Positions 1 to 1,975 of a stretch of DNA of 64,000 nucleotides are shown here, piece by piece; positions within the stretch are counted from its first letter, which is position 1, and every line of letters begins with the position of its first letter. Location of the stretch: assembly GCF_054482595.1 (NCBI RefSeq), contig NZ_CM137008.1; one strand, 5' to 3'. The position numbers are program-made.

Positions 1-1975
1 CATTCTCTGTCCCTTCTTAATGCGTAAAAATAGTTTGCTGATAATGTATACTCTGAATTCGATGTATCACAGATTCATGTTCAGGCATGTCGGAAGCATT
101 GCTTGTCTCCACCGCCAGGGATGCAAAGGCGCTGGCATAACACAGTGCTGATTCCAGTGATTTTCCTTTCGCAAGTCCTGATGCCAGAGCGCCGTTAAAA
201 GCATCCCCGGCTCCTGCCGTATTTTTAACGACCGCTGGAAACGCTGGCGAATGAATGAATTTTTTGCCATCAAATGCGAGTGAGCCCTTGCTACCGAGCG
301 TGATAACCGTGTTTTTTACCCCTTTATTGTGGATAGCTTCTGCAGCTCGTTTAGCTGATTCAAGATCGTGTACGTCTATGCCGGACAGTAAACCAGCTTC
401 TGTTTCATTGGGGGTGATATAATCAACATCCTGAATAAGTTCGTTGACGATATCATTATAGGGTGCCGGGTTAATAATGACCGGGATACTGTTTTTTTGC
501 GCCAATGTGATCGCTTGTTGCAGAGCGGTATAATTTGTTTCGAGCTGCAGAAGTATGACATCAGAATTAATAATCGCTTCTTTCTGAATAGTTATTTCAT
601 CGGACGACATTGTCATGTTGGCACCGGGATAGATCGCAATAACATTATCGCCAGTACCTTCATTAACAAGGATCGTGGCAGTTCCGGTTTGCGTTTCTTT
701 CGTTTGATAAATTATACTTTTATAAATCTTAGACGAATTCATAAAGTTGATCGCATAATCACTAAAGTGATCTGTACCTACTTTTGTTATGAAATAAACA
801 TCAGTATCGGCAAAGCTTGCTGCCAGCGCCTGGTTACAACCTTTTCCCCCCGGTGAAAATATAAAATTACTTGCCAGAAGCGATTCTCCGATAGTGGGAA
901 GCCTCGGCAAATAACTGATGATATCAACATTAAACGAACCAATAACGCATACTTGACTTTTCATAGTTGAGTGGCCTTTTTTTATTCCCTGGGCTGTATC
1001 ATAATTTTCAAGCGCATAAGCGATTTCATTTTTCGCAATAGTATCAAGCGAGTCTAGGACGATAAAAGCACCGCCATGACATCGAGTCAGATAGCCAAGT
1101 CTGGCAAGTTCATTAAGATCTGATCGAATAGTTTCTTTCGTTACATTGAGGCTATTGGACAGATCGGATACTTTTACAGAACCGAATTTACTGAGTCGTT
1201 TCAATATTTCATGATGGCGTTCAAATTTCATGCTTCACCTCACTTCAGTTACGTTAATATCTGTCGATGTATATTGATGTGATAATCACCATAAAGTGGC
1301 GGGGAAAAGCAAAAAAAATCAAAAATAGCCGGAGAAAAGGTAAGCGTTAATGGAGAATCATATTGATGCTTATTTATTGGTGAGAACTACGTTCCATGGC
1401 AGGAGTTCATCAATACGGTTGGAAGGTTATTCCGGCAGTACGCTCAGGATATGGCGCAGATACTCTTCCGGATCAATGTCGTTCAGAAGGCAAGTGCCGA
1501 TAAGCCCATACAACAGTGCACTGCGCTCGCCGTCGAAGAACATAAAGTTTTTATTTCCGAGACAGATGGCACAAAGGGCTTTTTCCGCGGCATTATGTCT
1601 GCCTCCGCCTGACCGTCAACACTGTAATAACAGAGTGCGCCCCACTGATTCAGTACACAGCTGAACCATTCTCCCAGTCTGGATTTTTGGACAGCGTGGC
1701 ATTTTTCTCCACCATCCACGCATGCAGTGAGTCCAGTAACAGTTTGCTCTTCCTCTGCCTGACCACAAGATGTTCTGGTTCTGGCATACTGAATTTGGCC
1801 ACCTGAGCATAGGTAATATGCTCACCTTAGAACAACACAGATGCTCCAATGAAAAAAGGAAATTTCAGCGCAGAGTTTAAACGCGAATCCACTCAACTAG
1901 TTGTTAACCAGAACTTTACGGTGGCAGGTACCATCCAAAGCTATGGATGTCGGTCTTTCCACAATGACAAGATAA

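What the first reader, a model, noticed from the sequence alone, without database searches (positions are those of the whole stretch)
17..1231. One-polypeptide fusion of a DeoR HTH with a PfkB sugar kinase
DeoR regulators normally carry a sugar-phosphate-binding effector domain; here the HTH is followed by a complete ribokinase-like kinase with the catalytic GAGDAF motif. This could be a regulator that phosphorylates its own effector, or a kinase that autoregulates. The substrate cannot be inferred from the sequence.
Basis: seen in the sequence. Interest (0 to 1): 0.5.

Follow-up and report, generated by a model that had tools for sequence, protein, structure and literature searches.

The report
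DeoR-HTH fused to active ribokinase (RikA)
This E. coli gene joins a DNA-binding domain to a working ribose kinase; it is the counterpart of Salmonella RikA, published in 2026, and comparative evidence suggests the DNA-binding half, which that paper did not detect in the purified protein, is functional.

Summary
Window 17..1231 (minus strand) is one 404-aa ORF with HTH_DeoR (aa 5-56, E 4.9e-15) and a complete PfkB/ribokinase domain (aa 92-382, E 5.3e-65; catalytic D343, NXXE and GGKG motifs intact).

It is not new as a protein. It is the E. coli ortholog (80% identity, same four-gene cassette) of Salmonella STM3547/RikA. RikA was shown in June 2026 to be a D-ribose kinase (PMC13432705). That paper recovered only a ~35 kDa product and proposed a start at Met90, without the HTH.

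My comparative evidence argues the HTH is translated and functional:
- dN/dS for codons 1-57 is 0.06-0.26.
- M1 has the strongest conserved Shine-Dalgarno of the whole gene.
- The fusion heads five different operon types across Gammaproteobacteria.
- 15 of 21 divergent fusion clusters have no Met at the domain boundary.
- All 14 loci share a CRP-like site, with 10-bp-phased direct repeats just upstream in most. These repeats are a candidate operator.

Met90 is nevertheless conserved in the close clade, so two products are plausible. About 11% of E. coli carriers have a Q81* allele that splits the gene.

DNA binding, the operator and the true substrate remain untested.

The parts
17..1231 (-). 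Complete CDS, 404 aa (stop 17-19). E. coli ortholog of Salmonella RikA/STM3547; RefSeq WP_000667429.1, annotated 'PfkB family carbohydrate kinase'.
1064..1219 (-). DeoR-type winged helix-turn-helix, aa 5-56. It ends in the family-typical R-C-H-G-G-A wing.
   Evidence: Pfam HTH_DeoR E 4.9e-15. Best NCBIfam HTH match is AgaR, aa 3-61. dN/dS 0.06-0.26. AF2 block-mean pLDDT 69-91 over aa 1-60.
965..1060 (-). Linker, aa 58-89. Poorly conserved (23% mean identity to the query) and predicted flexible.
   Evidence: pLDDT below 50 for aa 59-69 and 77-90
989..991 (-). Codon Q81 (CAG). In 220 complete E. coli genomes it is TAG, splitting the gene into an 80-aa HTH peptide and a possible 315-aa kinase. 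PGAP calls that allele a pseudogene.
962..964 (-). Internal ATG, Met90. This is the start proposed for Salmonella RikA. It is preceded by an A-rich, weak SD-like AAAAAGG at 975-981.
   Evidence: PMC13432705. Met in 81 of 97 and Val in 10 of 97 close homologs. SD energy -3.2 kcal/mol here.
86..958 (-). PfkB/ribokinase domain, aa 92-382. Key residues: N101/D103, G128-G129-K130-G131-x-N133, E231, N275-x-x-E278 (398-409), TAGAGDAFNG (191-220), catalytic D343 (203-205).
1235..1243 (-). Shine-Dalgarno GTGAGGTGA, 3 nt upstream of the M1 ATG. It is conserved as GTGAGGT(G/A)A in six of the seven cassette-type sequences and shortened to TGAGGTAA in Providencia. SD-like GAGGT or GGCGG occur in the paralogs.
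   Evidence: -9.2 kcal/mol here; M1 is the lowest mean SD-energy column of the aligned CDS, apart from three gap columns filled by a single sequence
1278..1293 (-). CRP-consensus-like site TATGGTGATTATCACA (8 of 10 core positions of TGTGA-N6-TCACA), centred 54 nt upstream of the ATG.
   Evidence: An equivalent site, 7-9 of 10, lies at -54 to -63 in all 14 loci; background for 8 of 10 or better is 0.00035 per position.
1306..1324 (-). Candidate operator: 10-bp-phased direct repeats TTTTGATTTTTTTTGCTTT.
   Evidence: Unique in the 64-kb window, expected 0.05. It occurs once per locus at the same position in 11 of the 12 matching loci and twice in Providencia, including a different operon type. 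Related repeats ACTTCCGTTT occur in types C and E.
1427..1787 (-). IS66-family transposase remnant that bounds the upstream region in this E. coli island.
   Evidence: L001 16427-16787

Best explanation
The ORF is the E. coli ortholog of Salmonella RikA (STM3547). It is a genuine single reading frame. A DeoR-type winged HTH is tethered by a flexible linker of about 30 residues to a complete, active ribokinase domain.

Most likely the full-length protein is the local regulator of its own operon, rikA / GATase1-like / DMT transporter / PTE-like esterase. In this model it binds the 10-bp-phased pyrimidine-rich direct repeats that lie about 30 bp upstream of a CRP-like site. The ribokinase domain, a dimer whose lid closes on sugar, serves as sensor for ribose or a ribose-like product of the pathway, and also as the pathway's kinase. 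This is a 'trigger-enzyme' type one-component regulator.

In this Enterobacterales clade the internal ATG at codon 90 probably also yields a kinase-only product, the form seen in Salmonella.

Shown here: architecture, conservation, purifying selection and the shared cis-elements. Shown in the literature for the ortholog: ribose kinase activity, D343 essential, and a 35-kDa product. Inferred: DNA binding, operator identity, direction of regulation, the inducer, and co-existence of two isoforms.
For: - Domains.
- Active site: it is conserved against E. coli RbsK. D343, K130, D103 and G340 are invariant across 116 fusion proteins, and N275 and E278 are at least 90% conserved.
- Orthology: 80% identity to STM3547 with an identical four-gene cassette. 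RikA kinetics and genetics are in PMC13432705.
- HTH under purifying selection: dN/dS is 0.06-0.26 where dS is not saturated. The excess of synonymous over nonsynonymous change has Fisher p from 2e-5 to 5e-12 for cassette-type pairs and 1.5e-3 against the type B paralog.
- HTH conservation (54% mean identity) is about equal to the kinase (57%).
- M1 has a strong conserved SD, -6.9 to -9.2 kcal/mol, the best conserved SD column in the aligned gene.
- The fusion is the first gene of five operon types: A, GATase1_like/DMT/PTE; B, nucleoside hydrolase plus transporter; C, DHDPS/DUF386/MFS; D, ABC transporter plus ADP-ribosylglycohydrolase family; E, SPI-2 orf408.
- 15 of 21 divergent 50%-cluster representatives have no Met at the boundary. 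STM1382 has no start codon there at the DNA level. Those kinases can only be made as fusions.
- Direct repeats and the CRP-like site sit at fixed positions upstream of the fusion gene, whatever the downstream genes.
- The AF2 model shows two folded domains joined by a low-confidence linker.
Against: - In Salmonella, a C-terminally tagged construct with 278 bp of native upstream DNA gave only a ~35 kDa protein, consistent with a start at M90. RikA(90-404) alone supports growth on ribose.
- Met90 is conserved in 81 of 97 close homologs.
- About 11% of E. coli carriers have Q81*, so the covalent link is dispensable in nature.
- No DNA-binding or regulatory experiment exists.
- The repeats lie upstream of the CRP-like site, an unusual place for a simple repressor. 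They could be an UP-like element or the site of another factor.
- The promoter itself was not identified by the consensus scan.
- Ribose may be only a side substrate: RikA kcat/Km is about 50-fold below RbsK.
Confidence: 0.55

Rival explanations
1. Kinase only. The real protein starts at Met90. The upstream 89 codons are an annotated but unused extension, a relic of a former regulator gene, and the gene has no regulatory role.
For: A 35-kDa product was recovered and RikA(90-404) complements in Salmonella (PMC13432705). Met90 is conserved in the close clade. The Q81* allele is tolerated in 220 E. coli genomes.
Against: Codons 1-57 evolve with dN/dS 0.06-0.26. The strong SD at M1 is conserved in all 10 sequences. 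The HTH stays in frame in more than 110 homologs across five operon contexts. 15 of 21 divergent clusters lack an internal Met. The Salmonella experiment examined only clarified lysate, and full-length H6-RikA was insoluble.
Confidence: 0.12
2. The full-length protein is made, but the 35-kDa species arises by proteolysis in the disordered linker rather than by internal initiation. There is one translation start and no programmed second isoform.
For: The AF2 linker at aa 59-69 and 77-90 has pLDDT below 50. The SD before M90 is weak in E. coli and Salmonella, -3.2 to -3.4 kcal/mol, rank about 75 of 404 codons. Cells were harvested after 18 h. Most divergent fusions have no Met at the boundary.
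Against: Met90 is one of the three best-conserved columns between residues 58 and 93 (81 of 97), and the Providencia sequence with Val uses GTG. The SD-like AAAGGA is better placed in types C and D, -6.0 to -7.2 kcal/mol. Protease inhibitor was used.
Confidence: 0.2
3. Pure regulator. The PfkB domain is only a ligand sensor, as the sugar-kinase fold is in ROK repressors, and kinase activity is irrelevant.
For: RikA has low catalytic efficiency relative to RbsK. The first-gene position is typical of regulators.
Against: The catalytic Asp is invariant and the NXXE and GGKG motifs are invariant or nearly so across the family. RikA alone supports growth on ribose, and D343A abolishes it.
Confidence: 0.05
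4. Artefact: two genes fused by a sequencing or assembly error.
For: None. Only the Q81* allele superficially looks like two genes.
Against: The sequence is identical in 1711 complete genomes. The same single ORF occurs in more than 10 genera.
Confidence: 0.01

Closest known systems
Salmonella Typhimurium RikA (STM3547), McCormick, Jabbar and Escalante-Semerena, Mol Microbiol 2026 (PMC13432705)
   Same: Ortholog: 80% identity over all 404 residues, with the same HTH, linker Met90 and D343. The downstream genes match too: STM3548-like GATase1_like 81% identical, DMT 93%, PTE 87%. Even a ggt 3' fragment is retained at the cassette end.
   Different: In E. coli the cassette sits in an IS-ridden accessory island, present in about 36% of complete genomes, and the upstream region is cut by an IS66 remnant 195 bp from the start. 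No experiment has been done on the E. coli protein. The paper treats the HTH as probably absent from the protein, whereas the comparative data here argue it is functional.
E. coli ribokinase RbsK (PDB 1RKD/1GQT)
   Same: Same fold and active site. phmmer E 2.1e-52 over aa 94-380. N14/D16, GGKGxN, E143, NXXE and GAGD/D255 equivalents are all present.
   Different: RbsK has no DNA-binding domain. Here D249 becomes N337 and I251 becomes A339, near the sugar and cation sites. The TIGR02152 score is just below its cut-off. The ortholog is about 50-fold less efficient on ribose.
DeoR-family repressors and activators (AgaR, DeoR, GlpR, FucR)
   Same: The N-terminal HTH_DeoR domain with the conserved T-x-R-R/S-D-L ... 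R-x-H-G-G-A signature; the best NCBIfam HTH match is AgaR. From my knowledge of AgaR: T-rich phased repeat operators.
   Different: The canonical C-terminal DeoRC sugar-phosphate-binding domain (PF00455) is absent and replaced by a PfkB kinase.
Salmonella SPI-2 orf408 (STM1382), 'putative regulatory protein, deoR family'
   Same: Paralog with the same HTH-PfkB fusion (47% identity), also followed by a GATase1_like gene (STM1381, PDB 3SOZ), a hydrolase and a permease. It has the same upstream CRP-like site and a related repeat.
   Different: It has no Met or alternative start at the domain boundary, and different hydrolase and transporter partners. It is uncharacterised.
Bifunctional enzyme-regulators (BirA, NadR, PutA, archaeal RbkR) and ROK repressors (NagC, Mlc); from my own knowledge, not tested here
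   Same: The concept: a DNA-binding domain fused to a metabolic enzyme or enzyme fold that senses its own substrate.
   Different: These have unrelated folds and HTH types. ROK repressors have lost catalysis, whereas this family keeps every catalytic residue.

Membership tests
PfkB carbohydrate kinase family / ribokinase subfamily | PfkB domain profile match | tested here: met
   PF00294 E 5.3e-65, aa 92-382
PfkB carbohydrate kinase family / ribokinase subfamily | Catalytic base Asp in the GAGD anion-hole motif, the NXXE motif, and the N-terminal GG-K-G-x-N motif | tested here: met
   D343 in TAGAGDAFNG, N275-E278, and G128-N133, aligned to RbsK D255, N187/E190 and G41-N46. D343 is invariant in 116 homologs.
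PfkB carbohydrate kinase family / ribokinase subfamily | Score above the curated ribokinase equivalog cut-off (TIGR02152 299.65; PRK11142 341) | tested here: not met
   285.4 and 255.1 bits. This is close to the cut-off but below it, so I file it as 'ribokinase-like'.
PfkB carbohydrate kinase family / ribokinase subfamily | ATP-dependent phosphorylation of D-ribose | not testable with these tools
   Shown for the 80%-identical ortholog RikA: Km 2.0 mM, kcat 337 per min, D343A dead (PMC13432705).
RikA (STM3547) orthologous group | High full-length identity plus conserved synteny with STM3548/3549/3550 homologs | tested here: met
   80-82% identity. The cassette GATase1_like/DMT_YdcZ/PTE is present in L001, L002, L005, L007, L015 and L018.
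DeoR family of transcription regulators | N-terminal HTH_DeoR domain | tested here: met
   PF08220 E 4.9e-15
DeoR family of transcription regulators | C-terminal DeoRC effector-binding and oligomerisation domain (PF00455) | tested here: not met
   No DeoRC match; the position is occupied by PfkB. So it has a DeoR-type HTH but is not a canonical DeoR-family member.
DeoR family of transcription regulators | Sequence-specific DNA binding and effector-controlled transcription | not testable with these tools
   Only indirect evidence: conserved direct repeats upstream of every fusion gene.
Genes with a programmed internal translation start (two isoforms) | A conserved in-frame start codon with a ribosome-binding site inside the ORF | tested here: inconclusive
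   Met in 81 of 97 and Val in 10 of 97 close homologs (the one Val sequence with DNA uses GTG), but only 6 of 21 divergent clusters. SD-like energy is -3.2 to -7.2 kcal/mol, rank 9-76 of about 404 codons.

The most novel reading that the evidence does not exclude
One gene, two proteins that regulate each other. The full-length HTH-ribokinase binds the phased repeats as a dimer. The Met90-initiated kinase-only isoform shares the same beta-clasp dimer interface, forms mixed dimers with a single HTH, and so titrates DNA binding. The ratio of the two translation starts, together with ribose occupancy, would then set operon expression, as a built-in anti-regulator. The natural Q81* alleles would be constitutive variants of this switch.
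Probability: 0.12. Interest if true: 0.65.

Novelty: new member of a known kind. Interest (0 to 1): 0.42.

Why it matters
The only experimental paper on this protein family, from June 2026, left open whether the DNA-binding half exists in the cell, and leaned towards 'no'. The comparative evidence here makes the opposite case and turns it into a directly testable model. The evidence is purifying selection on the HTH, a conserved strong ribosome-binding site at M1, relatives with no internal start, and a shared CRP-like site plus phased-repeat promoter architecture across five operon types.

If the model is right, these proteins form a family of sugar-kinase 'trigger enzymes' controlling several uncharacterised catabolic operons, some of which encode riboside-cleaving enzymes, in enteric bacteria. 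One of these operons lies inside Salmonella SPI-2. The regulon logic would also help identify the unknown substrate of the GATase1-like/DMT/PTE cassette, two of whose proteins already have crystal structures but no known function.

Tried and rejected
- The genome-contig scan with the protein returned only 2 loci. Neighbourhoods had to be collected one at a time with the look-up of encoding contigs.
- The sigma-70 consensus scan of 900-1700 found nothing conserved. Its two hits lie in the E. coli-specific, IS-derived part, so the promoter is not identified.
- Rfam search of 1-2800 gave no meaningful RNA family, so the conserved upstream blocks are not a known riboswitch or leader.
- The SD-energy profile did not single out Met90. 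Several internal non-start positions, such as the GGKG codons, score better, so sequence alone cannot prove internal initiation.
- My first pattern for the second upstream block used the wrong spacing (N6 between the R positions) and matched nothing relevant. The corrected N5 pattern and a TGTGA-N6-TCACA core count located it.
- I first read block 2 as a palindromic operator (TGAT-N4-ATCA). I now consider a CRP site more likely, because STM1382 has a 9 of 10 CRP core there.
- Literature searches for any characterised DeoR-HTH/PfkB fusion other than RikA found none.
- I considered the PTE partner as a phospho-sugar lactonase, but it scores far below the NCBIfam phospho-furanose lactonase cut-off (42.5 against 630 bits). 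Its near-identical solved homolog Pmi1525 is cited as a metal-dependent esterase.
- Fold search of the AF2 model was not run, because sequence matches to solved ribokinases were already decisive.
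Full report
**1. What is there**

Window 17..1231 (minus strand) is a single 404-aa ORF.
- Pfam finds HTH_DeoR at aa 5-56 (E 4.9e-15) and PfkB at aa 92-382 (E 5.3e-65).
- NCBIfam ranks the ribokinase equivalog TIGR02152 first, at 285.4 bits against a cut-off of 299.65. The best match for the N-terminus is AgaR, a DeoR-family repressor.
- Against solved structures the best hit is E. coli RbsK (E 2.1e-52, aa 94-380). In the printed alignment the equivalents of RbsK N14/D16, G41-N46, E143, N187/E190 and the GAGD catalytic Asp255 are all present: N101/D103, G128-N133, E231, N275/E278 and D343. Two nearby positions differ: D249 becomes N337 and I251 becomes A339.

**2. Not an artefact, and widespread**

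- The window is E. coli. The 3-kb context is found in 460 complete genomes.
- A 61-nt segment spanning the linker is found in 1973 of 5426 complete genomes and is identical in 1711.
- RefSeq annotates the protein as WP_000667429.1, 'PfkB family carbohydrate kinase'.
- Full-length homologs with both Pfam domains occur in Salmonella, Citrobacter, Klebsiella, Budvicia, Providencia, Pectobacterium, Rahnella, Brenneria, Gilliamella and Orbus. More distant ones occur in Photobacterium, Vibrio, Shewanella and a record labelled Martelella.
- About 20 clusters at 50% identity carry the fusion among the best 150 representatives.

**3. Context**

The gene is on the minus strand, so the window edge hides the downstream genes, not the upstream ones.

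In a complete genome the downstream genes are a GATase1_like protein, a DMT_YdcZ transporter and a PTE-family amidohydrolase, followed by a ggt fragment. The same four-gene cassette is found in Salmonella (STM3547-STM3550, next to an intact ggt), Klebsiella, Providencia, Budvicia and Orbus.
- The E. coli ggt fragment is 84% identical to the 3' end of Salmonella ggt. The cassette was therefore imported together with its Salmonella-type junction.
- The GATase1_like partner matches the solved STM3548 structure 2GK3 (E 1.3e-145).
- The PTE partner matches Proteus Pmi1525, 3RHG/4QSF (E 2.5e-174). Pmi1525 is cited as a metal-stimulated esterase.

**4. What is already published**

A June 2026 paper (PMC13432705) characterises STM3547 as RikA.
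- rikA alone supports growth on ribose in a strain lacking rbsK and deoK.
- Km is 2.0 mM for ribose and 50 uM for ATP. kcat is about 337 per min. kcat/Km is about 50-fold below RbsK.
- D343A is inactive. Other pentoses are poor substrates.
- The authors noticed the 89-residue DeoR-type extension. From a construct with 278 bp of native upstream DNA they purified only a ~35 kDa C-terminally tagged protein. [quoted passage not shown]
- They add that more work is needed and that a longer isoform is not excluded.
- Two caveats come from their own methods. The protein was purified from clarified lysate after 18 h of growth, and full-length H6-RikA was insoluble when overproduced.

The E. coli protein is 80% identical to RikA and keeps Met90 and D343.

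**5. Is the HTH a functional, translated part of the gene?**

Five lines of comparative evidence say it is.
- **Purifying selection.** In pairwise Nei-Gojobori comparisons among E. coli, two Salmonella subspecies, Citrobacter, Klebsiella and Budvicia, codons 1-57 have dN/dS of 0.06-0.26 wherever dS is not saturated. The excess of synonymous over nonsynonymous change has Fisher p between 2e-5 and 5e-12 for cassette-type pairs, and 1.5e-3 against the type B paralog.
- **Conservation.** Across 97 full-length homologs the HTH is as conserved as the kinase (54% against 57% mean identity to the query). The linker is not (23%).
- **Ribosome-binding site at M1.** M1 is preceded by GTGAGGT(G/A)A in six of the seven cassette-type sequences, by TGAGGTAA in Providencia, and by GAGGT or GGCGG in the paralogs. 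In a scan of anti-SD pairing energy over every codon of ten aligned genes, the M1 column has the lowest mean (-7.9 kcal/mol) of the whole gene, apart from three gap columns filled by a single sequence.
- **No internal start in many relatives.** Among 21 divergent cluster representatives only 6 have Met at the domain boundary. In Salmonella STM1382 the boundary codons are ACA AAA AAA GCA GGC AAG, with no start codon at all. Those kinases can only be made as fusions.
- **Intact enzyme.** The catalytic Asp, K130, D103 and G340 are invariant in 116 fusion proteins, and N275 and E278 are at least 90% conserved. The enzyme half has not degenerated into a mere sensor.

**6. Is there also an internal start?**

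- Met90 is present in 81 of 97 close homologs, and Val in 10 more. The one Val sequence for which I have DNA uses GTG. Met90 is among the best-conserved columns between residues 58 and 93.
- It is preceded by an A-rich AAAGG-type sequence encoding the conserved Lys-Gly.
- The predicted SD strength is only -3.2 to -7.2 kcal/mol, rank 9-76 of about 404 codons, and is weakest in E. coli and Salmonella.
- The AF2 model has pLDDT below 50 for aa 59-69 and 77-90, between two confident domains. Cleavage in the linker is therefore an equally simple source of a 35-kDa species.

I regard a second, kinase-only product as plausible in this clade but unproven.

**7. A natural split allele**

- A Logan contig set (cluster P0008, 825 member sequences) carries CAG-to-TAG at codon 81. 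This gives an 80-aa HTH ORF and a 315-aa kinase ORF starting at Met90.
- The exact 61-mer with this change occurs in 220 complete E. coli genomes, about 11% of carriers. PGAP annotates it as a pseudogene with an internal stop.
- The stop lies 24 nt before ATG90, so re-initiation could keep the kinase. This is my inference.

**8. Five operon types, one promoter architecture**

The fusion gene is always the first gene.
- Type A: GATase1_like / DMT / PTE.
- Type B: nucleoside hydrolase plus a transporter (Salmonella L016, Gilliamella L020).
- Type C: DHDPS-like / DUF386 / MFS (Rahnella, Pectobacterium).
- Type D: ABC transporter plus an ADP-ribosylglycohydrolase-family protein (S. bongori).
- Type E: GATase1_like / alpha-beta hydrolase / amino-acid permease next to ttrBCA. 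This is SPI-2 orf408 = STM1382, annotated 'putative regulatory protein, deoR family'.

Types B and D encode enzyme families that could release ribose from ribosides. This fits a ribose-sensing kinase-regulator.

Two blocks recur upstream of the fusion gene at fixed positions; block 2 is in all 14 loci and block 1 in most.
- **Block 2** matches the CRP core TGTGA-N6-TCACA at 7-9 of 10 positions and is centred 54-63 nt before the ATG. The background frequency of 8 of 10 or better is 0.00035 per position. In the window it is TATGGTGATTATCACA at 1278-1293.
- **Block 1** lies about 30 bp further upstream. It consists of two or three direct repeats with a 10-bp period.
  - In types A and B the sequence is TTTTGNTTTTTTTTG. 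It is unique in the 64-kb window (expected 0.05). It occurs once in 11 of the 12 matching loci and twice in Providencia, always at about -93 to -79.
  - In type C the repeat is ACTTCCGTTT, with a related single copy (ACTTCCGGTT) in type E.
  - The shared unit, read by eye, is roughly WYTTYYGNTT.

The only gene common to these operons is the fusion gene, and the recognition helix (T-K/R-E-T-I-R-S-D-L) is nearly invariant. Block 1 is therefore my candidate operator. This is inference. It could instead be an UP-like element or the site of another protein. The promoter hexamers were not identified, and no Rfam family matches the region.

**9. Mechanism proposed**

- The full-length protein dimerises through the ribokinase beta-clasp, as established for RbsK. 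This places two HTHs on flexible linkers over the phased repeats next to a CRP-dependent promoter.
- Closure of the lid on binding of ribose, or of the pathway's ribose-like product, changes DNA binding.
- The same domain phosphorylates the sugar.
- A kinase-only form may be made from Met90.
- I cannot say whether the protein represses or activates.

**10. Comparison and novelty**

- The gene is a member of the RikA orthologous group and of the PfkB family. It is ribokinase-like, just under the equivalog cut-off.
- It carries a DeoR-type HTH but fails the DeoR-family test for the DeoRC domain.
- Conceptually it resembles enzyme-regulators such as BirA, NadR and PutA, and ROK repressors. These are unrelated folds, and this comparison rests on my own knowledge.
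- No other paper on a DeoR-HTH/PfkB fusion was found.
- The finding is therefore a new member of a known kind. Its remaining interest lies in the unresolved and now testable question of whether and how the HTH works.

Noticed in passing
window 989-991 (codon 81); L014 415-420; L017 4057-5271: A CAG-to-TAG nonsense allele (Q81*) splits the fusion into an 80-aa HTH ORF and a 315-aa kinase ORF. The exact allele is in 220 of about 1970 complete E. coli genomes that carry the gene, and PGAP calls it a pseudogene.
   Followed up: yes
L001 11854-12146 (about 2.9-3.1 kb beyond the left edge of the window): The ggt fragment next to the PTE gene is 84% identical to nt 1459-1739 of Salmonella ggt. In Salmonella an intact ggt flanks the cassette. 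The E. coli island therefore seems to have imported the cassette with its Salmonella-type junction.
   Followed up: partly
L022 6001-7227 (Salmonella SPI-2, next to ttrBCA): SPI-2 orf408/STM1382 is a 47%-identical paralog with the same HTH-PfkB fusion. It is followed by GATase1_like (STM1381, PDB 3SOZ), an alpha/beta hydrolase and an amino-acid permease. It has a 9 of 10 CRP core upstream and no start codon at the domain boundary. Tn-seq papers list orf408 and orf245 among fitness genes.
   Followed up: partly
window 1278-1293 (-), and the equivalent position in 13 other loci: A CRP-consensus-like site sits 54-63 nt upstream of every fusion gene. This suggests catabolite-controlled, possibly class II, promoters. 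The transcription start is unknown.
   Followed up: partly
codons 1-89 versus 90-404, Salmonella L002 against Citrobacter L012: Synonymous divergence is much lower in the 5' part (pS 0.10-0.14) than in the kinase part (0.43). E. coli against Salmonella shows the same trend (0.44-0.55 against 0.79). This could reflect a recombination mosaic or constraint on synonymous sites in the 5' third. It is unexplained.
   Followed up: no
window 19669-21694 (L021 1669-3694): The same island carries a LacI-family regulator followed by a nucleoside hydrolase, about 18 kb from the ribokinase fusion. This is another potential source of free ribose.
   Followed up: no
window 2775-7713 and 32231-37974: There are two separate accessory aspartate and C4-dicarboxylate clusters. 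The first has aspartate ammonia-lyase, an anaerobic C4-dicarboxylate transporter, an Asp/Glu racemase and a LysR regulator annotated HypT. The second has an aspA-like gene, a dcuA-like gene, ansB and dcuR.
   Followed up: no
window 8948-12821 (L001 23948-27821): An accessory dgoRKAD copy with a truncated MFS (dgoT-like) gene, flanked by IS200/IS605 and IS66 remnants.
   Followed up: no
window 1427-2539: IS66-family and other transposase remnants lie immediately upstream of the fusion gene's promoter region. Only about 195 bp of native upstream DNA remain, but both conserved blocks are retained.
   Followed up: partly
window about 43300-62200 (L021 25321-44184): Four tRNA-Asn genes, a tRNA-Ser and a frameshifted integrase. 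The accessory region lies in the asn-tRNA island-integration area near cobUST, nac, cbl and yeeJ.
   Followed up: no
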